Positions 46 to 64,000 of a DNA stretch of 64,000 nucleotides are shown here, in pieces. Below the pieces are notes generated by a model. It did not search any database, was not told the origin of the DNA, and was given only the letters and a program-made list of their open reading frames with translations. The DNA comes from Malacoraja senta. Taxonomy: Eukaryota. The stretch spans positions 1,984,001 to 2,048,000 of the forward strand of contig CM075989.1 of the NCBI GenBank assembly GCA_038087875.1, in the 5' to 3' direction. How positions within the stretch are numbered: position 1 is the first letter of the stretch; each line of letters begins with the position of its first letter. The position numbers and the translations under genes are program-made.

Positions 46-89
46 TTACACTATCCTACACACACGAGGGACAATTTAAAATGTTACCA

Positions 90-730
90 GGCCAGTTAGG
101 ATTCATCAGGATCTCTCCAGTTTCAGGAAAATACCAACATCATCCCCCCTTTACCCCCCTCTCTTCCCTGTGCCCCACCTGCATGTGCACCCATTCTTCC
201 ACTATCCCACTCCACTTTCATCTTCCCCTTTCCCCTTCGACCTACATCCCTTCCTCCTGCTTCACAATTCTCACTTCTTCTTTCTTTATCAACCTTTTGT
301 CTTTTTCCCTTCTCTGGTTTTACTCCACCCATCTGGCAATCAAACCCTGCTCTCCTGCATCCACTGTCGTCATTCATGTATCCCATCTTCCCCAGCCAAC
401 AATGGGCCAATATAGACTCCATCCTTCCTGAGGTCACCTGCTGCCGGCCCTATGTTGTTCTGGCCTTCTCCATCAGTCTGACAAAGGGTTCTGACCCGAA
501 AGGTCACCTCCAGGGATGCTGCCTGACTCACTGAGTTACTCCATCAGTCTGTGTCTATCCGCCTATTACTTGCCAGGGTTTGTTCTGCCCCCATCTATTT
601 TCCAGCTATCATTCCCTCTCACTGGTATCAGTCCGAAGAAGAGTCTCCACCAAGAATGTCACCTGCCCATGTTCTCCAGAGATGCTGCCTGACCTTCTGA
701 GCTACTCCAGCATTTTGTGTGTGTTTTTGT
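90..730 (+). mobile_element. Old PLE 3' end plus a second terminal unit
   Basis: Pyrimidine tract followed by degenerate ctga..gggttctgacccgaaa and gatgctgcctgac..ctgagttactcc. Confidence 0.65.
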
Positions 731-8696: not shown

Positions 8697-8902
8697 ACTG
8701 AGAGTCAGGCAAACGTTGGTTGATGTTGTTTTGGGCAGTAGGTACAGAAGCCTGAAGCCCCTCATCACAAGGTTCAGCAACAGATACTTTCCTACACAAT
8801 GTGTAAGAAGGAACTACAGATGCTGGCTTACACCGAAGATAGACATAAAACGTTGGAGTAACTCAACGGGTCAGACAGCATCTCTGGAGAAAAGGAATAG
8901 AT

Positions 8903-8930
8903 GACGTTTCGGGTCGAGACCCTTCTTCAG
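8903..8930 (-). ncRNA. Minimal type-I hammerhead ribozyme core
   Basis: Identical core to 8669-8696. Confidence 0.7.
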
Positions 8931-9489
8931 GCTGTCAAAGATCTGTGAACAGTCTGATGAAGCGTCTTGATCCAAAATGTCACCTATCCCTTTTCTCCGG
9001 TGATGTATCTATACACTGTAAATGGATCGATTGTAATCATGTATTGTCATTCTGCTGACTGGTTAGCACGCAACAAAAGCTTCTCACTGTATCTCGGTAC
9101 ACGTGACAATAAACTAAACTGAAACGGAAACTGAGCCGCTGAGTTATTCGGGCATGTTGTGCCTACTTTCCTACAAATATTGGGATCTTGACCCAACCTG
9201 CACAACCCTAACCCTACCTCAGCCACGGAACACACCTTGTCGCATGGCCTTACCTCATGCACCTGGTTTGGTTCTAATTGTATTTTGCATTAATGCTTTA
9301 TGTTTCTGCACTGTTTTATTTTCCTGCAGTCTTGCAGAATTTATGTGTAACTTCTGCATCATTTATGTATAATTTCAGTTTTATATTTTCTCAGAGCTAA
9401 ATGTGCCTGTGTTGCTGTTGCAAGTAAGATTTATATGGTGGCTGTACCTCACTGTATGACACTAGACTTGATTAGTCTTGACATGTGTG

Positions 9490-10280: not shown

Positions 10281-10935
10281 GGTGAGGGTGGGGATCGGGG
10301 TGGGGGTGGGGGTGAGGGGTGGGTGTGGGTGAGTGTGGGTGTGGGGGTGGGGGTGTGGGTGGGAGTGTGGGTGGGTGTGGGTGTGGGGGTGGGGGTGTGG
10401 GTGGGTGAGTGTGGGTGTGGGTGTGGGTGTGGGTGTGGGTGTGGGGGTGGGTGTGGGGGTGTGGGTGTGGGTGGGGGTGGGTGTGGGTGAGTGTGGGTGT
10501 GGGGGTGGGGGTGGGGGTGTGGGTGGGGGTGTGGGGGTGTGGGTGTGGGGGTGGGGGTGTGGGGGTGGGGGTGTGGGTGTGGGTGGGGGTGGGGGTGGGG
10601 GTGGGGGTGGGTGTGGGGGTGTGGGTGTGGGTGGGGGTGGGTGTGGGTGAGTGTGCGTGTGGGGGTGGGGGTGTGGGTGTGGGTGGGGGTGGGGGTGGGT
10701 GTGGGGGTGTGGGTGTGTGGGGGTGGGTGTGGGTGTGGGGGTGGGGGTGTGTGGGGGTGGGTGTGGGGGTGTGGGTGTGTGGGGGTGGGGGTGGGTGTGG
10801 GGGTGTGGGTGTGGGGGTGGGTGTGGGGGTGGGGGTGTGTGGGGGTGGGTGTGGGTGTGGGGGTGGGGGTGTGTGGGGGTGGGTGTGGGTGTGGGGGTGG
10901 GGGGTGGGTGTGGGTGAGTGTGGGTGTGGGGGTGA
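10281..10935. repeat. Degenerate (GGGTGT/GGGGGT)n tract
   Basis: ~650 bp made almost entirely of G and T. Confidence 0.97.
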
Positions 10936-13208: not shown

Positions 13209-13384
13209 TTATGAGTGGTTTAATGTGGTGTTGGCCAGGGTGTATTCTAGGGGAGGTGGACATGCAGCAGCCTCATGGATCTGGTGCCAAGTAATTCACA
13301 CGGCTGCTCCAAAATGCAGAGTGCTTCTTCCCCACAGCACCTCACGCCAATGACACCCCGACACTGACCCTCCACAGCAGACAA

Positions 13385-13527
13385 GACCTTCTGAAGAAGA
13401 AGGGTCTCGAAGAAGAGTCTCAACTCGGAACGTCACCTATTCCTTTTCTCCAGAGACCCGCTGAGTTACTCCACCTTTTTGTATCTATCTTGGGTTTAAA
13501 CCAGCATCTGCTGTTCCTTCCTACACA
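13385..13527 (+). mobile_element. PLE terminal unit with 13-bp TSD
   Basis: ccacagcagacaa at 13372-13384 and 13528-13540. Confidence 0.82.
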
Positions 13528-13629
13528 CCACAGCAGACAATTAGAAGCATGTGATGATGTGAATGAGTGAATGAAAGATACTTTATGATACTTTACCAAT
13601 ACACAACATGCATTGTGCTCCATTTTGTA

Positions 13630-22610: not shown

Positions 22611-22893
22611 TGACAATTAAATACTCTTGTCTTTTGATGAACTTTCATCAGTACACTTATTTAAATTAAATATCAGTTACTTTTATTTCTCAGAGTTGCT
22701 GTCCGACCAGCTGAGTATTTCCATCTTCTGTCATCGTAATTCAGAGTTGCAGCATCCGTAAACCTAGAAGGGTCTCGACCCGACACGTCACCCATTCCTT
22801 CTCTCCAGAGATGCTGCCTGTCCTGCTGAGTTATACTCCAGCTTTTTGTCTCTATCTTCCGTAAACATTATGTTTATTTGCATTGTAGATTTC

Positions 22894-23599: not shown

Positions 23600-24412
23600 C
23601 TAGACCAAGTGCAGACCCATTGGGTCTGTTCCCGCAACGCGCGGTTGCGAGTGGAGGGGGCGGCATGAGGTGTCACACACACACACACACTAACCAACCT
23701 CTCACACACACACACTAACCACCCCCATTGATATTATATTAAGAAGGGAGGGAGGAGAGGGGTAGGGCCGCCCAACAGCCGTCGGCCTCAGAGTTAGCCT
23801 CAGCTCCATGGCCTCGCATCCTCGGTGCTTCAGACCCCGAGTACGGGGAGGGGGTTGGGGGAGGGTGGAGTGGGCGGGCGGGCGTGATCCCGAGTGAGCC
23901 TGCGGGCCGCCAGCGAGGACGGCAAAAAGCAGCGGGGGGACCAGCCGATCTGTGCCTTCCGCCAGCATGTACGGGGACGGGGGGGGGGTGGAGGGTGGAG
24001 TGGGCGGGCGGGCGTGATGCCGAGTGAGCCTACGGGCTGCCAGCGAGGATGGCGAAAAGCAGCGGGGGGACCAGCCGATCTTTGGCTTCCATCAGCGTGA
24101 CAGAGCTGGGCCGGGGGGGGGGGGGGGTGGGGGAAGTGGAGGAGAGCCGGGCGGCAGCAGCCGTTAAGGTCACGCGGGGCACACGATGAGAAGGTGGCCA
24201 GCGTGAGGCGAAAAAATGAGTGAGTGGGGGGGGGGGAGGATTTTATTAAAAATGTGTACAGAAAAATGACTACATTTAATGAGGAATGGATGAGTGAATG
24301 TAAAAGTAGAATCACTAGCGAAATGGTAAACATCTCGGCGATTTTGTGTCTGGTTTTCGCGGAGTAATGAATCAAAGGCAAAAATAATGACATACACACA
24401 CACACACACACA

Positions 24413-30096: not shown

Positions 30097-30517
30097 TACG
30101 GTGGCACAGCGGTAGAGTTGCTGCCTCACAGCGCCAGAGACCCAGGTTCGAACCTGACTACGGGTGCTGCCTGTGGGTAGTTTGTACATTCTCCCTGTGA
30201 ACCGCGTGAGTTATCTCCGGGTGCTCCGGTTTCCTCCCACATTTCACAGAAGTGCAGGTTTGAAGGTTCAAAGATGTTAAAAAAAAAAACATTGAGAACT
30301 ATATTTATTGTTTTAGATGTGAAAATGTATTAATATATTTTTGTGGATACGATTTCATGATGTTGGTGTTTGTAATTTCATGCTGCGCTTCTACCAAGGT
30401 CTTGATATGGATTGTGTTTTAGTTTAACGTTAATAGGCCTCGGTAATAATTGTAAATTGTCCTTAGAGTGTAGGATAGTGCTAGTGTACGGCTAGCGGTC
30501 GGCACGGATTCGGCAGG
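30097..30517 (+). mobile_element. HE1-type V-SINE interrupted by a 165-bp inverted duplication
   Basis: SINE 30097-30268, resumes 30431-30517; tail missing. Confidence 0.85.
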
Positions 30518-30677
30518 ACGTTAAATTAAACACAATCACATCAAGACCTTGGTAGAAACGCAGCATGAAATTACAAACACCAACATCATGAAATCGTATC
30601 CACAAAAATATATTAATACATTTTCACATCTAAAACAATAATATAGTTCTCAATGTTTTTTTTTAACATCTTTGAAC
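30266..30677. repeat. ~160-bp inverted repeat (30266-30430 and 30518-30677)
   Basis: Arms are near-identical reverse complements. Confidence 0.95.
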
Positions 30678-35033: not shown

Positions 35034-35304
35034 AAAAGGAACTGCAGATGCTGGAAAATCAAAGGTACACAAAAATGCTGGAGAAACTCAGCGGGTGCAG
35101 CAGCATCTATGGAGCGAAGGAGATAGGCAACGTTTCGGGCGATTCTGATTCTGATTCTGATTCTGATCACCATCTCTATCTCTCGTTTCCCTTTCCCCTG
35201 AATCTCAGTCTGAAGAAGGGTTTCGGCCCAAAACGTTGCCTATCTCCTTCGCTCCATAGATGTTGCTGGCCCGCTGAGTTTCTCCAGCATTTTTGTGTAC
35301 CTTC
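35034..35304. mobile_element. PLE inverted unit (subfamily B) inserted in a CR1 tail
   Basis: Inverted arms; imperfect TSD ctgttg(t/c)t(a/g)tgcta. Confidence 0.8.
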
Positions 35305-35599
35305 TGTTGCTGTGCTATACTGTTCTATGTTCTAAAATGATGAGGGTGGGATGCAGGAAATGCAGCCCCATAATAAAGGTAAATTAAACATCTGGACACA
35401 CATTTAAGGTAAGAGGGGAGAGATTTAGAGTGATCTGAGGGGAAGCTACTCCACCCGGAGATGGTGGAGGCTGTGTCTCTGACGGCGTTGAAGGCAATGG
35501 ACCAGGGTGCTGGAAGATGGCGTTAATATGTAAGGGCACCATAGACATTAAAAAACATGTGGACAGCTACAGATGCATGGACAGGATAAGTTTAGAAGG

Positions 35600-36752
35600 A
35601 AGGCACAAAATGCTGGAGTAATTCAATAGGTCAGACAGCATCTCTGGAGAAAAGGAATGGGTGACTTTTCAGCTCGAGACCCTTCTTCAGACTGAGATTC
35701 AGAGGAAAGGGAAACGAGAGATATAGATGGTAATCAGAATCAGAATCAGAATCAGAATCAGAATCGCACTTTATTCGCCAAGTATGTTTTGCAACATACG
35801 AGGAATTTCATTGGCCAGGTCAGTCATACAATTTAAAAGTAACAGATCATTCAAAAACACATTTTAACATGAACATCCACCACAGTGACTCCTCCACATT
35901 CCTCACTGTGATAGAAGGCGAAATAAAGTTCAAGTCCTTCCCTTAGTTCTTCCTCGGTTGTGGGCCTCGAGCCCCCATTGACGGGACGATCTTGACTCCC
36001 GTAGCCGGCGGCATTCGGGCTCTCCGCATCGAGGCGATCTGCTCCCGCATCGGGGGGGGGATGTCAGCTCTCCCGCGCCGGGCGATCGAACCCTGCGTCG
36101 GGGCTGGTTGAACCTTCTGCGTCGTTGGAGCTCCCGACTCGGCCTCACCCGAAGACTGCGAGCCCTTGATGTTGGTTCCATGGTGGTCGCGGTGGGAGCG
36201 ATCACAGGCAAGGGATCATCTCCGATGTTAAGTCCGCGCCCCGCGGTGGGGCTCACGACAGTCCGAGAAGGCTTCCAGCTCCAGCGATGGAAGGCCGCAG
36301 AGCACGCCGGAGAATGTGATCCGAAAAATGATCACATCTCCGGCAAGATAGGGACTTGAAAAAAAGTTTCTCCCCTCTTCCCCCTCCCCACATAAAACAA
36401 ACCGAAGAACATTAAAACAAAACTTTTAACAAACTAAAAAATAACAAAAGAGTGAAAAGACAAACAGACTGCCAGCAGGGCTGCCATCTCCCCGGTGATG
36501 TCGAGAGATATAGAACAATTGAATGAAAGAGATGCAAAAAAAGTTACGATGATATAGGAAACAGACCATTGTTAGCTGTTTGTTCGGTGAGAATGTGTAC
36601 AGACAATCAGACTCAACAAGACGACTTGGAAGCTGGTGAGACTTGGGTGGGCGATGAACACAGAGAGAGGGAATGCAGAGGTTACTTGAAGTTAGAGAAA
36701 TTGCTATTCATACCACTGGGTTGTAAGCTGCCCAAGTGAAATATGAGATGTT
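35600..36752 (-). mobile_element. PLE 3' end (ORF end to HHR-bearing terminus), split by an insertion at 35732-36490
   Basis: EHLIFHLGSLQPSGMNSNFSNFK* at ~36682-36753 is linked through a pyrimidine-rich UTR to the cttcttcagact terminal unit. Confidence 0.8.
35732..36490 (-). mobile_element. Same family, apparently full length
   Basis: Starts agatggcagccc; ends aataaagtgcga(ttctga)n; cleanly interrupts a PLE. Confidence 0.7.
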
Positions 36753-39370: not shown

Positions 39371-40612
39371 TATTAGGCTTTGCGACTGTCAGGCTTTGAC
39401 ATTGATCCCCTGAGTACGTGATGGAATCTGGGGGTTTCTTTTTCATTTAATCATCATTGAAAACATTAGCGACGCAGTGGTGCTGGTTTCTGACGGGAAC
39501 GGTGACGGACGCACCACACACCTCTGTCCTCCAGTTCCTGCGGACTTCCGCCACTGGAAGTATAGGATTTTGGTGTGTGTGTTTTATCATCATTCCTTAC
39601 AATGCCGTGTACGACAGTGATCGCAACTTCTACTGAAGTGTGGATGGCCGTTGGCTCGCTAGGAGCTCATCTGCCCTTTGACAGGTCTTGTTTTTGGTCC
39701 TGCTGGGGGTCCACAGCCCCCTCCTCACCTGGCAAACCATGTGGGGGAGACGGTTTAGTCGCCGACTATCTGACCATGGAGCAGGTAGCACGGGATTACA
39801 TGGTACCCGTGGCGGGGTGAACCCCCCCCCCCCCGACTTGACTTGAACATAAACCGGGAAAAGTTGAACACAACCTACAGCAGGGAATACTTGCCCAGCT
39901 TCTACACCAGGAGGGAAACAGGATTAGGCTTTGAGTGGAGTGGGACAGGTTGGCAGTTTTTCAGTTTTGGTTAATTTCGACATTTTGCAGTGTTTCGGCG
40001 TTTGAGTCATTTACATTGTCAGGCACGGTAAGGGGTGCAATCATGACATGTAGCTGGAGTGTAGACCCAGCATGTGGATAGAACACGGACCCAGGGCACA
40101 GATGGGACACGGATAGATCATGGACCCAGGGGATGGATGCAACACGGACACCGAACACGGATGGAGCACGGACTCAGGGATGTTCTGTTCTGAAAGGTTG
40201 ATTGATTCACAGGGTAAAACCACTTGAGGCATCAGGGACAAGTAAGCACATTGTGAAAGTCACCAATTGTCAAGGGACTCTGTCGCCTGGGGGTTTAGTT
40301 TTGTAACAGGAGCAGCTGTTCACGTGGCCCTGAGACGGTGCACTGACAACACAGAACATGTGCCCACAGCAGGGAATCGCCTGACTGTGCATGGATCATC
40401 CGATCAGTGAGAGACCAAGTCATTTCTATAGTCAGTCTGAAGAAGGGTTCCGACCCAAAATGTCACCTATTCCTTTTCTCCAGAGATGCTGCCTGACCCG
40501 CTGAGTTACTCCAGCATCTTGTGTCATCTTCAGACCAAGTTGTCCTCATCCAAGCTGGTCCCATTTGCCTGCATGTGGTCCATCTCCTAAACATTTTCTA
40601 GTCAGTCTACCC

Positions 40613-46664: not shown

Positions 46665-46845
46665 TGTGAGCGTGAGATTTCTCCGGGTGCTCCGGTTTCC
46701 TCCCACACTCCAAAGACATGCATGTTTGTAGGTTAATTGACTTCTGTAAATTGTAAATTGTCCCTAGTGTGTGATCATTAGTTGGTGCGGACTTGATGGG
46801 CTGATGGGCCTGTTTCTGCGCTGTATCTCGGAAGTCTAAAGTCTA
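46665..46845 (+). mobile_element. HE1 SINE 3' half
   Basis: Central domain plus tail. Confidence 0.8.
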
Positions 46846-47001
46846 ATGTGTGTTGGAGCATTAATAGAATAACATCCAAGACTGCAGAATATATGCTAGT
46901 CTGACAATCGAATGCTTGCCGAATGGACAGAGTTTTAGTACCTGTTAATGAACACGGCATGAAATTGGTGCAGTTTGAACATCTACCAAATGGGTTAATG
47001 G

Positions 47002-47249
47002 AGATAGACACAAAATGCTGGAGTAACTCAGCGGATCAGGCAGCATCTTTGGAGAGAAGGAATAGGTGACGTTTCGGGTCGTGGTCCTTCTTCAGACTGA
47101 GAGTCTCTCTGGGTATGACTGCTCTTTGCTTCTGAAGAAGTTGTCTCGACCTATTCCTTCTCTCCAGAGATGCTGCCTGTCCCGCTGAGTTACTCCAGTA
47201 TTTTGTGTCTATCTTCGGTGTAAACCAGCATCTGCAGTTCCTTCCTACA
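47002..47249. mobile_element. PLE inverted unit with 15-bp TSD
   Basis: caaatgggtt(a/c)atgg at 46987-47001 and 47250-47264. Confidence 0.85.
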
Positions 47250-47559
47250 CAAATGGGTTCATGGCATTTAATTAATTTTATTCTATCTTGATAAAGAAGT
47301 CCATTCACCAAATTAACATGGTTGACATGTAGAGGAGACAAAAAGCTGACATATTGGTGCAGTTATTTTCTCAAGGTCACAGACATTGCAGACAGACAGA
47401 AGATCTCTGGCAATGCTCGGAGCCAAGCAGCCAACTTGTAGTCTAGTTGGACAAGCACACAGCGATAGGTATAAACCCAAGGGATGCTTTCTATCTATGC
47501 AATGAGTCATATCCACAATGTGAAAGATGCACCACAACATAGAACATAAAATAGTACAA

Positions 47560-47774
47560 TAGATAGACACAAAAAGCTGGAGTAACTCAGTGGGACAGGC
47601 AGCATCTCTGGGAGAGAAGGAATGGGTGACGTTTTGGGTTTCAGTCTGAAGAAGGGTCTCAACCCGAAACGTCACCCATTCCTTCACTCCAGAGATGCTG
47701 CCTGTCCCGCTGAGTTACTTCAGCCTTTTATGTCTATCTTCGGTTTAAACCAGCATCTGCAGTTCCTTCCTACA
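47560..47774. mobile_element. PLE inverted unit with 15-bp TSD
   Basis: cata(a/g)aatagtacaa at 47545-47559 and 47775-47789. Confidence 0.85.
47646..47673 (+). ncRNA. Minimal type-I hammerhead ribozyme core
   Basis: CUGAAGA A GGGU-CUCA-ACCC GAAACGUC. Confidence 0.68.
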
Positions 47775-47789
47775 CATAGAATAGTACAA

Positions 47790-48260
47790 CACAGGAGCAG
47801 TCCCTATGGCCCACAATGTCCGTACCAAATATGAAGCCAGGTTAAACTATTATCCTCTACATGCATGTGATCCATATCCTTCCATTCCTTACATATCCTT
47901 GTGCCTATCTCTGTATCTGCCTCCACCATCACCTCTGCTAGTATGTTCCAGGCGATTTCTGTAAAAAGCTTGCCCTTTTTAAACTTTGTCCCTCTCATCG
48001 CATATCTATCCCCTCGAGTCTTTAACAATTCTACACTGGGAAAAAGGTTCTGACTGTCTCCCCTATCTGTCCCTCTCATATACTTCTCTCAGGTGTCCCC
48101 TCCGCCACCGACATTCCTGAGAAAACTGTCCAAGTTTATTCGACCTTTCATTACAGCTAATACCTTCCAATCCCGGCAACATTCTGGTAAACCTCTTCTG
48201 CAGCATCTCCAAAGCCGCCACATATTTCTTGTGTTCGAGTCACCAGAACATATTCAGTAT
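47790..48260 (-). mobile_element. Old CR1 3' fragment
   Basis: ORF 47804-48079 resembles a degraded ORF2 end (MRGTDR..LFP..KTRG). Confidence 0.7.
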
Positions 48261-48264
48261 TTTG

Positions 48265-48997
48265 GATATAAGGAACTGCAGATGTGATTTACAGCAATAT
48301 AAAAAGACACATAGTGCTGGAGTAACTCAGCCAGTCAGACAACATCTCTGGAGAACATGGACAGTGATGTTTTTGGTCGGGGCCCTTCTTCAGACTGACC
48401 GTTCTGCATCAGAAAGAGGCTCCTTCAAGTCTCTGCTTATCCAATTCTCACCGAGCCCACAGCTAATGATGGCCTGTTTCTGCGTTTATCATCGTTACTT
48501 TTATGCATAGATTTCATTCATTTGTTCTCTTTCTCTCTATATCACCGTCTATATCTCTCGTTTCCCTTCCCTCTAACTCTCAGTCTGAAGAAAGGTCTTG
48601 ACCCGAAATGACACGTATTCATTTTCCCCAGAGATGCTGTGTGACCCGCTGAGTTACTCCAGCATTTTGTGTCTGTCTCTAATTTTCTACTCACTGCAGC
48701 ATTGGTACATTTCAGTCTGAAGGAGGGTCCGGACCCGAAACATCACCTGTCCATGTCTGACAGGGATACTGCCTGACTCGCTGAATTACTCCAGCAATTT
48801 GTGTCTGGTTTTTAATTCAGTGCTTTGTTGTAATTTTTGTAAAACATGAATGGAAAAACAAAACCCGGAGTGACCTGGGGAGACCCAAAACGTCACCCAT
48901 TCCTTCACTCCAGAGATGCTGCCTGTCCCGCTGGGTTACTCCAACAATTTGTATCTATCTTCAGTGTAAACCAGCATCTGCAGTTCATCCCTACACA
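48265..48997. mobile_element. PLE terminal array (one reverse, three forward units)
   Basis: Motifs at ~48370 (-), 48585, 48717, 48880 (+). Confidence 0.78.
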
Positions 48998-49336: not shown

Positions 49337-49652
49337 AACGGTTGGGGGGAGGGACTCAAATAGAGAACGCTATTAGACAGTGTGTGAGGCAGGAGGCAGA
49401 GAAGGAAAGCACTCAGACCCAACATGTAGGGGAGAAAGAAGAAAACAATAATAAACAGAGAATAAGAGGTGGTGGGGTTCTTAAATGGGTGAGCAGAGAA
49501 ACAGAGGGGTGTAAAATGCAGGCGGAAGCAATAGGTAGCAAGGTGAAAAGTAAAAGTGGCAGGCAGACAAATCCAGGGCAAAAACAAAAAGGGCCACTTT
49601 TCAACATAATTGTATAAGGGGTAAGAGCGTTGTAAAAACAAGCCTGAAGGCT

Positions 49653-52451
49653 TTGTGTCTCAATGCAAGGAGCATTCGTAATAAGGTGGATGAGTTGAAC
49701 TTGCAGATAGCTATTAATGATTATGATATAGTTAGGATCACGGAGACATGGCTCCAGGGTGACCAAGGCTGGGAGCTGAACATCCAGGGATTTTCAATAT
49801 TCAGGAGGGATAGAGAGAAAGGAAAAGGAGGTGGGGTAGCATTGCTGGTTAGAGAGGAGATTAACGCAGTGGAAAGGAAGGACATTAGCTTGGAGGATGT
49901 GGAATCGGTATGGGTAGAGCTGCGAAACACTAAGGGGCAGAAAACGCTGGTGGGTGTTGTGTACAGGCCACCTAGCAGTAGTAGTGAAGTTGGGGATGGC
50001 ATCAAACAGGAAATTAGAAATGCGTGCAACAAAGGCAAAACAGTTATAATGGGTGACTTCAATCTACATATAGATTGGGTGAATCAAATTGGCAGGGGTG
50101 CTGAGGAAGAGGATTTCTTCGAATGTATGCAGGATAGTTATCTAAACCAACATGTAGAGGAACCAACGAGAGAGCAGGCTATTCTAGACTGGGTAATGAG
50201 TAATGAGGAAGGGTTAGTTAGCAGTCTTGTTGTACGTGCCCCCTTGGGCAAGAGTGACCATAATATGGTTGAGTTCTTCATTAGGATGGAGAGTGACATT
50301 GTTAATTCAGAAACAATGGTTCTGAACTTAAAGAAAGGTAACTTTGAGGGTATGAGACGTGAATTGGCCAAGATTGACTGGCAATTAGTTCTAAAAGGGT
50401 TGACGGTGGATATGCAATGGAAGGCATTTAAAGACTACATGGATGAACTACAAAAATTGTTCATCCCAGTTTGGCAAAAGAATAAATCAGGGAAGGTAGT
50501 GCATCCGTGGATAACAAGGGAAATCAGGGATAGTATCAAAGCAAAAGATGATGCGTACAAATTAGCCAGAAAAAGCAGCATACCAGAGGACTGGGAGAAA
50601 TTCAGAGACCAGCAGAGGAGGACAAAGGGCTTAATTAGGAACGGGAAAATAGATTATGAAAGAAAACTGGCAGGGAACATAAAAACTGACTGCAAAAGTT
50701 TTTATAGATTTGTGAAGAGAAAGAGATTAGTTAAAACAAATGTAGGTCCCTTGCAGTCAGAAACAGGTGAATTGATCATGGGGATCAAGGATATGGCGGA
50801 CCAATTGAATAACTACTTTGGTTCCATCTTCACTAAGGAAGACATAAATAATCTGCCGGAAATAGCAGGGGACCGCGGGTCAAAGGAGATGGAGGAACTG
50901 AGTGAAATCCAGGTTAGTCGGGAAGTGGTGTTGGGTAAATTGAATGGATTAAAGGCCGATAAATCACCAGGGCCAGATAGGCTGCATCCCAGAGTACTTA
51001 GGGAAGCAGCTCCAGAAATAGTGGATGCATTAGTGATAATTTTTCAAAACTCTTTAGATTCTGGAGTAGTTCCTGAGGATTGGAGGGTAGCAAATGTAAC
51101 CCCACTTTTCAAGAAGGGAGGGAGAGAGAAAACGGGGAATTACAGACCAGTTAGTCTAACATCGGTAGTGGGGAAACTGCTAGAGTCAGTTATTAAAGAT
51201 GGGATAGCAGCACATTTGGAAAGTGGTGAAATCATTGGACAAAGTCAGCATGGATTTACGAAAGGTAAATCATGTCTGACGAATCTTATAGAATTTTTCG
51301 AGGATGTAACTAGTAGAGTGGATAGGGGAGAACCAGTGGATGTGTTGTATCTGGACTTTCAGAAGGCTTTCGACAAGGTCCCACATAAGAGATTAGTATA
51401 CAAAATTAAAGCACATGGTATTGGGGGTTCAGTATTGATGTGGATAGAGAACTGGCTGGCAAACAGGAAGCAAAGAGTAGGAGTAAACGGGTCCTTTTCA
51501 CAATGGCAGGCAGTGACTAGTGGGGTACCGCAAGGCTCAGTGCTGGGACCCCAGCTATTTACAATTTATATTAAAGATCTGGACGAGGGAATTGAAGGCA
51601 ACATCTCCAAGTTTGCGGATGACACTAAGCTGGGGGGCAGTGTTAGCTGTGAGGAGGATGCTAGGAGACTGCAAGGTGACTTGGATAGGCTGGGTGAGTG
51701 GGCAAATGTTTGGCAGATGCAGTATAATGTGGATAAATGTGAGGTTATCCACTTTGGTGGCAAAAACAGGAAAGCAGACTATTATCTAATTGGTGGCCGA
51801 TTAGGAAAAGGGGAGATGCAGCGAGACCTGGGTGTCATGGTACACCAGTCATTAAAAGTAGGCATGCAGGTGCAGCAGGCAGTGAAGAAAGCGAATGGTA
51901 TGTTAGCTTTCATAGCAAAAGGATTTGAGTATAGGAGCAGGGAGGTTCTACTGCAGTTGTACAGGGTCTTGGTGAGACCACACCTGGAGTATTGCGTACA
52001 GTTTTGGTCTCCAAATCTGAGGAAGGACATTGTAGCCATAGAGGGAGTGCAGAGAAGGTTCACCAGACTGATTCCTGGGATGTCAGGACTTTCATATGAA
52101 GAAAGACTGGATAGACTCGGCTTATACTCGCTAGAATTTAGGAGATTGAGAGGGGATCTTATAGAAACTTACAAAATTCTTATGGGGTTGGACAGGCTAG
52201 ATGCAGGAAGATTGTTCCCGATGTTGGGGAAGTCCAGGACAAGGAGTCACAGCTTAAGGATAAGGGGGAAATCCTTTAAGACCGAGATGAGAAAAAACTT
52301 TTTCACACAGAGAGTGGTGAATCTCTGGAACTCTCTGCCACAGAGGGTAGTTGAGGCCAGTTCATTGGCTATATTTAAGAGGGAGTTAGATGTGGCCCTT
52401 GTGGCTAAAGGGATCAGGGGATATGGAGAGAAGGCAGGTACGGGATACTGA
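49653..52451 (+). CDS. CR1/HER1-clade LINE ORF2 (APE endonuclease + reverse transcriptase), uninterrupted 932 codons
   Basis: EN motifs CLNARS, ITETW, VYRPP, MGDFN, SDH; RT motifs NYRPVSLTS, YLDFQKAFDKV, GVPQGSVLGP, FADDTK; CR1 C-terminus LVRPHLEYC..WSP. The ORF opens on TTG; the likely ATG (49516) is one nt out of frame. Confidence 0.95.
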   Translation: MCLNARSIRNKVDELNLQIAINDYDIVRITETWLQGDQGWELNIQGFSIFRRDREKGKGGGVALLVREEINAVERKDISLEDVESVWVELRNTKGQKTLVGVVYRPPSSSSEVGDGIKQEIRNACNKGKTVIMGDFNLHIDWVNQIGRGAEEEDFFECMQDSYLNQHVEEPTREQAILDWVMSNEEGLVSSLVVRAPLGKSDHNMVEFFIRMESDIVNSETMVLNLKKGNFEGMRRELAKIDWQLVLKGLTVDMQWKAFKDYMDELQKLFIPVWQKNKSGKVVHPWITREIRDSIKAKDDAYKLARKSSIPEDWEKFRDQQRRTKGLIRNGKIDYERKLAGNIKTDCKSFYRFVKRKRLVKTNVGPLQSETGELIMGIKDMADQLNNYFGSIFTKEDINNLPEIAGDRGSKEMEELSEIQVSREVVLGKLNGLKADKSPGPDRLHPRVLREAAPEIVDALVIIFQNSLDSGVVPEDWRVANVTPLFKKGGREKTGNYRPVSLTSVVGKLLESVIKDGIAAHLESGEIIGQSQHGFTKGKSCLTNLIEFFEDVTSRVDRGEPVDVLYLDFQKAFDKVPHKRLVYKIKAHGIGGSVLMWIENWLANRKQRVGVNGSFSQWQAVTSGVPQGSVLGPQLFTIYIKDLDEGIEGNISKFADDTKLGGSVSCEEDARRLQGDLDRLGEWANVWQMQYNVDKCEVIHFGGKNRKADYYLIGGRLGKGEMQRDLGVMVHQSLKVGMQVQQAVKKANGMLAFIAKGFEYRSREVLLQLYRVLVRPHLEYCVQFWSPNLRKDIVAIEGVQRRFTRLIPGMSGLSYEERLDRLGLYSLEFRRLRGDLIETYKILMGLDRLDAGRLFPMLGKSRTRSHSLRIRGKSFKTEMRKNFFTQRVVNLWNSLPQRVVEASSLAIFKRELDVALVAKGIRGYGEKAGTGY

Positions 52452-53189: not shown

Positions 53190-53606
53190 AGAGGGCACAA
53201 AGTGCTGGAGTAAATCTATGGGTCAGACAGATAGGTGACGTTTCGGGTCAGGACCCTTCTTCAAAAATCTGATATGTCAGCTGTCCATGTTCTCCAGAGA
53301 AGCTGCCTGACTTGCTGAGTTACTCCACCACTTTCAGCCCTTTCGTGTAAACTATCTTCTGCACTTCCTCGTTTCTACCAGATTAGTGTGGTCTTCTGAC
53401 CCAACATGGCAACCTTGGGTCGCTCAAATCTCCGCTTGACCTGTCCCCACAGCCCCGTTTCAGTGCTTCCTGACCCAATGGTGCTGTGGTCGTAGACTGG
53501 AAACCAGCGCACTAACTGAATATTTAAGAAGGAGCTGCAGATGCTGGAAAATTGAAGGTAGACAAGAAATATTGCCTATTTCCTTCGCTTCATAGATGCT
53601 GCCTCA
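53190..53606. mobile_element. Two PLE units; 53523-53606 has a perfect 15-bp TSD
   Basis: cgcactaactgaata at 53508-53522 and 53607-53621. Confidence 0.8.
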
Positions 53607-53667
53607 CGCACTAACTGAATAGTTTATAGTGGACCTCGATGGATCGTTTGACCTGCTCCTTCATCTC

Positions 53668-62680: not shown

Positions 62681-63589
62681 CATTTATTTATTGACTAATA
62701 TTGCATGAGGCAAGTGTCACTGACAGGGAATGCCGGTGAGGGTCGGCCACATATAATCGCCCATCCTAATTACTATTGCACCACAGCACCCGTCTTATGT
62801 TAATGCGGACGGGCTTGCAGCTTCCGGGTGGCCAGGGTTATGGGGAGAAGGCAGGAGAATGGGGTTGAGTCGGAAAGTTAGATCAGCCATGGTTGAATTG
62901 CAGAGTCGACTTGTTGGGCCGAATGGCCTAATTCTGGTCCTATAACTTAATGACCATATGAATTCATGAATGTGGCAGTGATGAAGAAATGGTGATATGT
63001 TTTCAAGTCTGATTGGTTCGCTCGCTGGTGTGTCAGACAACGTTCTTGCATCGCTTTGCCGCAGCCAGTGCCACATCTGTGCCTCTGTGGAGATGGTCCA
63101 CAGTGCCTGCCTCTCTGCCCCAAGTCAGTAGGTGGGCCGTTGTCTGTACCTCTCTGATTGGTATACAAGTGGAGGAAGCGATGGCTGGTGGTGTTCCCAT
63201 GTGCCTGCTGCCCTTGTCCTTGTTGGTAGAGGAGCCGGGTTTTGGGCGATGGGATGGGAGTAGTGTGGGTGAGTAACTGTACATGCTGTGGCCACAGTGT
63301 ATGGTGAAGAGGTTCAGTCGACATTTGCTGCTGACAGTGGCACTTCCTTACTGAGAAAAACCCGAGATGGATGAGTTTGCATCTCCAGTTTGCGGATGTG
63401 ACGGGGTTGTACACACAACATGCACAGGTTCCGGTGAGTGAGCCGTGTGCGGAGAGGGGAATGCCGGTGACGATTGGCCACATCCCCACAGCCGGCCTGG
63501 CTCCTGCACCTCGCAACCCGAGATATGTCACGTAGCGACAGAAAACTCCTGAGATGGAACTTGGTGGAATTATCCAGTGGGCGGGCCGC

Positions 63590-64000
63590 CGAGAGTGGGG
63601 GGGGGGGGGGGAACAGGAGTGAGAGGGGGGGGTCGCCAAGAGTGAGGGGGGGCCATCGAGAGTGAGGGGGGGTGCCGAGAGTAAGTGGGGGAGCACCGGG
63701 AGTGAGGGGGGGGGCACTGAGAGTAAGCGGGGGTGCATTTAGAGTGGGGGGGGCCAAGAGTGATGGGGGGGCACCAATGGTGAAGGGGCCACCGAGAGTG
63801 AGGATGGGGGGTGGCGAGAAGGAGGGGGTGCATTGAGAGGGAGGGGGGGGCACCAATGGTGAAGGGGCCACCGAGAGTGAGGATGGGGGGTGGCGAGAAG
63901 GAGGGGGTGCATTGAGAGGGAGGGGGGGGCGGGGCACCAAGTGTGAGGGGGGGGGCACCGAGAATGAGGAGGAGGTTGCCGTGAGTGAGGGGGGTGGCCG
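63590..64000. repeat. G-rich minisatellite (gagagtgaggggg..cacc), runs off the window
   Basis: ~20-bp units with a larger ~78-bp internal duplication. Confidence 0.88.

What the first reader, a model, noticed from the sequence alone, without database searches (positions are those of the whole stretch)
46987..47789. Hammerhead-bearing units insert as tiny fold-back cassettes with 9-15 bp TSDs (retrozyme/SINE-like system)
Seen: 84-270 bp units flanked by direct repeats at 46987/47250, 47545/47775, 13372/13528 and 53508/53607, plus shorter tccgtaaac (~22755/22858) and agaccaagt (~40412/40532). Many consist of an antisense arm plus a sense arm with a different junction each time, and no coding sequence. 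Inference: each hairpin arose in one insertion event, either by extreme 5' truncation plus inversion of a PLE or by mobilisation of a short ribozyme-processed non-autonomous RNA. The second case would be a retrozyme-like family that I do not know to be characterised in chondrichthyans.
Basis: partly seen in the sequence, partly recalled or inferred. Interest (0 to 1): 0.72.

Follow-up and report, generated by a model that had tools for sequence, protein, structure and literature searches.

The report
Penelope end-stubs, not retrozymes
These short hairpin-shaped and single inserts are real and sit between duplicated target sites, but they have the known end-piece anatomy of a Penelope-like jumping gene and were likely copied from RNA the hammerhead had not cut; the one unusual trait is that about half of them start at one spot just before the ribozyme.

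Summary
All six named direct repeats are there (9-16 bp, 0-1 mismatch), plus a seventh at 8785/9164; strong TSDs occur at 5 of 38 loci tested against 1 of 392 controls. The window holds 52 confident arms of one ~135-nt module; 14 loci are head-to-head fold-backs, each with its own junction. The module shows published EN+ Penelope-like (PLE) hallmarks: a minimal type I hammerhead with an extra base after A9, a ~37-nt tail on only one arm (12 of 14, never both), and an inverted 5'-truncated copy. The retrozyme reading is not supported: 47 of 52 arms run through the predicted cut site from upstream, there are no arrays in the window, and the core decays about as fast as the rest. Truncation is not random either: 24 of 52 arms begin 26-35 nt upstream of the cut site, at TCAGT, and this start is a top hotspot in three relatives' contigs. 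Best model: PLE reverse transcriptase starts at two internal sites, one per nicked strand, and runs off a fixed 5' end. No RT/endonuclease gene and no empty site was found. New member of a known kind.

The parts
46987..47001 (+). Unit A left TSD (15 bp)
47002..47105 (-). Unit A inverted arm: module from -37 to the short 3' end (+66), no tail; core letters present (47068-47095) but helix II 2 of 4 pairs
47106..47130 (.). Unit A junction linker; longest match within 1.5 kb is 8 nt
47131..47251 (+). Unit A sense arm, -28 to tail end; GAAA-CGUC part of the core deleted; tail 47215-47251 (37 nt)
47250..47264 (+). Unit A right TSD; first 2 letters shared with the element end
47544..47559 (+). Unit B left TSD (16 bp)
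47561..47640 (-). Unit B inverted arm, -11 to +66; lacks the CUGA half and the tail
47641..47776 (+). Unit B sense arm: whole module from TCAGT to tail end
47641..47647 (+). TCAGTCT: shared 5' start point; reads as an initiator (recalled consensus) and, in long copies, as pyrimidine tract plus CAG splice acceptor
47646..47673 (+). Predicted minimal type I hammerhead: CUGAAGA, extra A, helix II GGGU/ACCC, GAAA, palindromic CG, UC; predicted cut after 47673; helix I only 2 bp
   Evidence: features as in PMC4209133
47740..47776 (+). 37-nt PLE-type tail, on one arm only
47774..47789 (+). Unit B right TSD; first 3 letters shared with the element end
13372..13540 (+). Solo copy with tail between 13-bp TSDs; core damaged
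53508..53621 (.). Second-subfamily fold-back (84 bp) between 15-bp TSDs; tail on the left arm; no CUGA half
22755..22866 (+). Solo copy without tail between 9-bp TSDs
40412..40540 (+). Solo copy without tail between 9-bp TSDs; starts at TCAGT after 11 other letters
8785..9175 (.). Further fold-back between 12-bp exact TSDs; sense arm split by other sequence at about 9006-9130

Best explanation
These units are TSD-flanked solo and head-to-head copies of one ~135-nt module, likely the pseudo-LTR end of endonuclease-bearing Penelope-like retrotransposons, likely written in by target-primed reverse transcription from RNA the hammerhead had not cut. Steps: (1) inferred: a PLE endonuclease makes staggered nicks 9-16 bp apart, giving the TSD; (2) shown as a pattern: copies have two preferred 3' ends about 37 nt apart (+66 and +103 from the cut site), inferred to be two internal RT start sites; (3) shown as a pattern: fold-backs carry one end of each kind facing outwards, inferred to mean each nicked strand primed its own cDNA; (4) shown as a pattern: copies stop at TCAGT about 31 nt upstream of the cut site, inferred to be run-off at the RNA's 5' end (an initiator-type start in the 5' pseudo-LTR; about 55%) or a fixed stall at a pyrimidine tract/splice acceptor (about 30%); (5) inferred: the two cDNA ends are trimmed and joined by host repair, which gives a different junction each time. 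The copies then decay neutrally.
For: Minimal-hammerhead anatomy matches the PLE consensus (extra base between 9 and 10.1, G10.1-C11.1, palindromic 15.2-16.2). 3' ends bimodal: 19 of 52 at +62..76 and 19 of 52 at >=+94. Tail on exactly one arm in 12 of 14 fold-backs, on both in 0, on neither in 2; all 14 head-to-head. Same layout (inverted pLTR, 31-bp tail, 9-10 bp TSD) published for Adineta Pen2/Pen2a and as the general PLE layout. Purified anole PLE extends both strands, starts RT at two internal sites that bound the tail, and uses uncut RNA. 47 of 52 arms start upstream of the cut site; 24 of 52 within -35..-26; of 27 fold-back arms 15 start in -35..-25 and 1 upstream of -37. In contigs of three coded organisms, tail end (47251, 47776-7) and start at 47643 are among the six top loose-end sites per run, with long, mixed flanks. 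Short copies group loosely with long copies of three upstream types. Non-CpG core changes 23/364 vs non-core 261/3086, p 0.19.
Against: No RT or GIY-YIG remnant links the module to a PLE in this window (motif scan; 0 Pfam hits in 32 frames chosen near long copies), and no genome is held: the link rests on anatomy. No empty site seen; units A and B are occupied in organisms A and C. 30 of 37 loci lack a detectable TSD. 14 of 52 arms have other 3' ends, and the 53508 unit's second end is at +34. Four different upstream sequences join the module at TCAGT, so some solo copies could be long copies of unsampled subfamilies; this does not apply to fold-back arms. My profile was seeded mostly with short copies. 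The tree has low support. In D. virilis the point matching TCAG|T is an intron's 3' end and transcription starts about 120 nt upstream, which counts against the run-off reading of step 4. Head-to-tail joins (+66 to the start point) exist in 19-25 contigs per DNA run.
Confidence: 0.8

Rival explanations
1. Self-propagating SINE-like family: inserted short copies are transcribed from their own TCAGT start, uncut, and are re-mobilised in trans by PLE protein. Same insertion chemistry as the best model, different source RNA; both could operate.
For: Sharp 5' start; very high density (9.3% of the window; over 500,000 contig records laid per DNA run); subfamily F2 (8 arms, 95% support for the 5 in the tree) has no native long copy in the window; pLTRs alone sufficed for mobilisation in trans in Adineta.
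Against: Other short copies intermingle with long copies of three upstream types rather than forming their own clades (low support); no pile-up of RNA read ends and equal strand depth over the tail in one poly(A) run of another organism, 6% read; no tRNA-like head.
Confidence: 0.2
2. Non-LTR retrozyme: tandem units are cut by the hammerhead into monomers or circles that are reverse transcribed and inserted.
For: Hammerhead core present; head-to-tail joins from +66 to the start point in 19, 25 and 23 contigs of the three DNA runs; tandem retrozymes reported in one chondrichthyan genome and derived from pLTRs.
Against: 1 of 52 arms starts and 0 of 52 end at the cut site; no arrays in the window beyond one 1.9-copy partial repeat; minimal core with 2-bp helix I, the type reported as inactive as a monomer, not the canonical type of retrozymes; tail asymmetry and inversion are PLE traits.
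Confidence: 0.07
3. Plain random 5' truncation of long PLE cDNAs with L1-style twin-priming inversion and no special 5' end.
For: PLE copies are commonly 5'-truncated and inverted; at least 8 longer copies exist in the window.
Against: 27 of 43 starts between -45 and +44 fall in one 10-nt bin (p 7e-16; 24 after correcting one arm and removing two long copies); the two arms overlap the same template stretch, whereas L1 twin priming gives non-overlapping arms (recalled).
Confidence: 0.08
4. MITE/fold-back DNA transposon that moves as a hairpin unit.
For: Inverted arms between TSDs.
Against: Ends are asymmetric (tail on one side), all 14 junctions differ, TSD length varies from 9 to 16, and 23 of 37 loci are single arms.
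Confidence: 0.02

Closest known systems
EN+ Penelope-like insertions with inverted pLTR, tail and TSD (Adineta vaga Pen2/Pen2a, PMC3846280; general scheme in PMC8557442)
   Same: Head-to-head inverted 5'-truncated copy, 30-40 bp tail on one end, TSD of about 8-10 bp or more, initiator-like motif in the repeat.
   Different: Here the ORF and second pLTR are absent, units are 84-248 bp, TSDs reach 15-16 bp, and 5' ends cluster at one point.
Poseidon_Ac (PAc) of Anolis carolinensis in vitro (PMC11167929)
   Same: Hammerhead a short way upstream of two 3' ends that bound the tail; AC-rich distal end; template uncut.
   Different: Shown biochemically there, inferred from sequence here; no AUG in this core; clade of the partner unknown.
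Minimal hammerheads of metazoan PLEs (PMC4209133)
   Same: Extra base after A9, G10.1-C11.1, palindromic 15.2-16.2; mostly single motifs; opposite-strand pairs noted in Schistosoma.
   Different: Helix II 4 bp and helix I 2 bp here; no chondrichthyan term found in 2 of 3 supplement files searched.
Metazoan non-LTR retrozymes (PMC7229834; 10.64898/2026.07.22.740005)
   Same: Non-coding, short, type I hammerhead, related to pLTRs.
   Different: Those are head-to-tail arrays with a hammerhead in each unit, expressed as circles; these are solo or inverted, tail-bearing and mostly core-dead.

Membership tests
EN+ Penelope-like element insertion | Minimal type I hammerhead in the terminal repeat | tested here: met
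   against PMC4209133; sequence pattern only, Rfam negative
EN+ Penelope-like element insertion | Inverted 5'-truncated copy joined head-to-head | tested here: met
   14 of 14 fold-backs
EN+ Penelope-like element insertion | 30-40 bp tail at one end only | tested here: met
   37 nt; 12 of 14 one arm, 0 both, 2 neither
EN+ Penelope-like element insertion | Target-site duplication | tested here: met
   7 of 37 loci, above control; empty site not seen
EN+ Penelope-like element insertion | Repeat flanks an ORF with PLE RT and GIY-YIG endonuclease | tested here: inconclusive
   none in the window; no genome held; pattern absent from the prokaryote, viral and metagenome collections
Non-LTR retrozyme | Head-to-tail tandem units, each with a complete hammerhead | tested here: not met
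   a minority of head-to-tail joins exists elsewhere in related genomes
Non-LTR retrozyme | Canonical type I hammerhead (about 6-bp helix I, loop contacts) | tested here: not met
   helix I 2 bp at most; unit B sense arm does not fold as a hammerhead in the minimum-energy structure
Non-LTR retrozyme | Self-cleavage and abundant circular RNA | not testable with these tools
   only a poly(A) run of another organism could be laid
tRNA-derived SINE | tRNA-like Pol III head | tested here: not met
   ARAGORN 0 genes; a weak test for decayed heads
MITE / fold-back DNA transposon | Symmetric terminal inverted repeats, fixed TSD length, copies sharing one internal structure | tested here: not met

The most novel reading that the evidence does not exclude
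In this lineage the Penelope reverse transcriptase mostly primes inside the 5' pseudo-LTR of a capped Pol II RNA that begins at TCAGT, one helix strand before the hammerhead, and runs off after ~100-135 nt, once per nicked strand. The resulting ORF-less stubs, some re-transcribed from their own initiator, would form a Penelope-driven SINE-like class covering several percent of the genome, and a very large natural record of how PLE inverted/tail structures form.
Probability: 0.3. Interest if true: 0.62.

Novelty: new member of a known kind. Interest (0 to 1): 0.33.

Why it matters
How PLEs make their inverted and tailed insertions is still described as undefined (PMC8557442). These ORF-less cassettes isolate just those junctions, and their one-short-end, one-tail-end rule fits the two-start-site, both-strand chemistry shown in vitro (PMC11167929). 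The fixed 5' start is a testable clue to where the template begins. For annotation, about 9% of this window is one PLE-type module that could be mistaken for a SINE, MITE, microRNA hairpin or retrozyme.

Tried and rejected
No whole genome was held. Rfam: 0 at gathering score; only generic hairpin models below threshold. Core patterns: 0 in metagenome, prokaryote and viral contigs. Only one stretch (46700-48820) was laid on reads, so empty sites at other loci were not examined. Arms of one cassette are not clearly more alike than other arms of the subfamily (13 pairs), so hairpin homogenisation is not shown. Cap signature: the letter before the A start (47643) is G in the loose-end majority of 4 of 4 runs, which would fit cap copying (PMC4859970), but inverted arms also end in TG and window copies more often start at C or T (16 arms at -31/-32, 2 at -30), so it is suggestive only. 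Spliced template rejected: no constant exon precedes CAG in short copies. A- and B-box-like words on the antisense strand (recalled consensus) were dropped: no tRNA fold. First TSD scan missed 13372 and 22755 through narrow windows; redone. The end-trimming was off by one column; redone. Literature searches listed no paper on this family in cartilaginous fishes or on a fixed PLE 5' start at the hammerhead edge; Repbase, Dfam, closed-access papers and the 2026 preprint's supplementary tables were not seen and may hold it.

Full report
Numbering: positions are relative to the predicted cut base (47673 in unit B = 0). Profile numbers past +6 are one higher than real ones in the main subfamily (+67/+104 in calls = +66/+103).

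1. Observation. All six direct repeats are present as described, 9-16 bp with 0-1 mismatch, enclosing 84-248 bp, and a seventh lies at 8785/9164. They exceed chance: score >=11 in 5 of 38 rows against 1 of 392 mismatched-boundary controls, >=9 in 7 of 38 against 14 of 392 (one locus was entered twice). Thirty of 37 loci show none, as expected of old copies (about 8% non-CpG and 25% CpG change) but not proven. A profile built from 20 window copies finds 56 arms covering 5962 bp, none in 5 controls; 52 pass E<1e-4 and are used below. Fourteen loci are fold-backs; 3 of the 6 named units are. Unit A folds far better than shuffles.

2. The hammerhead. Rfam does not detect it. By eye and pattern it is CUGAAGA, an extra A, helix II GGGU/ACCC, GAAA, CG, UC (5 exact pattern matches, 0 in 100 shuffles). 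The extra base, G10.1-C11.1 and the palindromic 15.2-16.2 are the published marks of PLE minimal hammerheads, which are predicted to work as dimers and cleave poorly in vitro (PMC4209133, parts 1-2 of 4 read). Only 4 of 52 arms keep core, palindrome and 4-bp helix II. Core positions change about as often as others (23/364 vs 261/3086, p 0.19; all arms p 0.07).

3. 3' ends and polarity. Ends are bimodal: 19 of 52 at +62..76, 19 at >=+94, none at the cut site. In units A and B the difference is a 37-nt tail. All 14 fold-backs are head-to-head; 12 carry the tail on one arm, none on both, 2 on neither. Both arms share a subfamily in 14 of 14 (p 3e-4). Every junction differs. This is the published PLE layout (PMC8557442, passages; PMC3846280, passages). 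Purified anole PLE nicks and extends both strands, starts reverse transcription at two internal sites that bound the tail, and uses uncut RNA (PMC11167929, parts 1-2 of 4). I infer one cDNA per nicked strand, one from each start site, joined at their far ends by repair. One cassette appears to have patched its junction from a neighbour 400 bp away (62/65 identical including a microsatellite, against 34/40 to another copy).

4. 5' ends. 47 of 52 arms begin upstream of the cut site and 1 at it, so the template was likely uncut. Starts are not spread: 24 of 52 lie in -35..-26 after correcting one arm and removing two long copies (uncorrected 27 of 43 in range, p 7e-16). Among 27 fold-back arms, where the 5' end is a real junction, 15 lie in -35..-25 and only the patched one passes -37. 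Laying public contigs on 46700-48820 placed over 500,000 records per DNA run; the tool left some uncounted and its depth is not a copy number. The top loose ends in all three are the tail end and starts at 47641 (continuing into pyrimidine-rich upstream sequence) and 47643 (655-897 records, long mixed flanks). The point is TCAGTCT, which reads as an initiator (recalled consensus; an Inr-like TCACT is noted in Pen2a) and also as a splice acceptor. In D. virilis the matching point is an intron end with transcription starting further up (PMC2377424, passages). Run-off from a start site is my preferred reading, a fixed stall is the alternative, and neither is shown. Four upstream sequences join the module at this point, which could inflate the solo-copy count.

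5. What is missing. No PLE coding remnant in the window (32 frames chosen near long copies, of 192 listed, gave no Pfam hit). No empty site: contigs of organism C (3-9% different) run from unique flanks into both units, and organism A holds them too, so the insertions predate that split. One poly(A) run of another organism (6% read) shows no pile-up of read ends and equal strands over the tail; it cannot test circles or start sites. The host clade was not tested.

6. Retrozyme test. Published non-LTR retrozymes are tandem arrays with canonical type I hammerheads, expressed as circles (PMC7229834, passages; 10.64898/2026.07.22.740005, parts 1-3 of 5, which reports them in one chondrichthyan genome and derives them from pLTRs). 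The window has no array. Against my reading: head-to-tail joins from +66 to the start point occur in 19-25 contigs per DNA run, a small minority that could include retrozyme-type dimers or ordinary PLE partial tandems.

7. Other papers seen: PMC6155905 passages; PMC4859970 passages; 10.1101/2025.06.08.657570 term search, no hits; the rest as search listings only. Earlier AI notes from other genomes reach the same reading; they are leads, not support, and my reading was logged before seeing them.

8. Verdict. Real, and a new member of a known kind: ORF-less PLE-type end stubs (0.8). The fixed 5' start and the one-short-end, one-tail-end rule are worth a specialist's look but were not found to overturn anything. 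Interest 0.33.

Noticed in passing
window 35035-35308 and 35694-35780: The junction of this fold-back (35140-35205) is 62/65 identical to the reverse of the neighbouring locus, including its (GATTCT)n tract, though the two module bodies are of different subfamilies: likely a repair patch copied from nearby DNA.
   Followed up: partly
   Followed up: yes
window 49554-52451 (+): Uninterrupted 965-aa frame with AP endonuclease and RT domains: a LINE second ORF (CR1-like by recall), apparently young; not a PLE.
   Followed up: partly
window 85-729: Two modules in partial tandem with different upstream sequences; the first has the longest pyrimidine-rich upstream stretch in the window, possibly a PLE 3' UTR; no Pfam hit.
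   Followed up: partly
window 470, 604, 3867, 25931, 26462, 35750, 48448, 59691: At least four different upstream sequences join the same module exactly at TCAGT, each as a pyrimidine tract plus CAG.
   Followed up: partly
joint 47074 to 47643: One fold-back junction recurs in 8 contigs of organism C and 2 of organism B but not in A; it may be a cassette carried inside a larger repeat.
   Followed up: no
window 30305-30641: 105-nt inverted repeat, 98% complementary, 127 nt apart; not part of this family.
   Followed up: no
window 10281-10934, 23841-24131, 63579-63994: G-rich low-complexity tract, a 130-bp GC-rich duplication and a 19-23 bp minisatellite.
   Followed up: no
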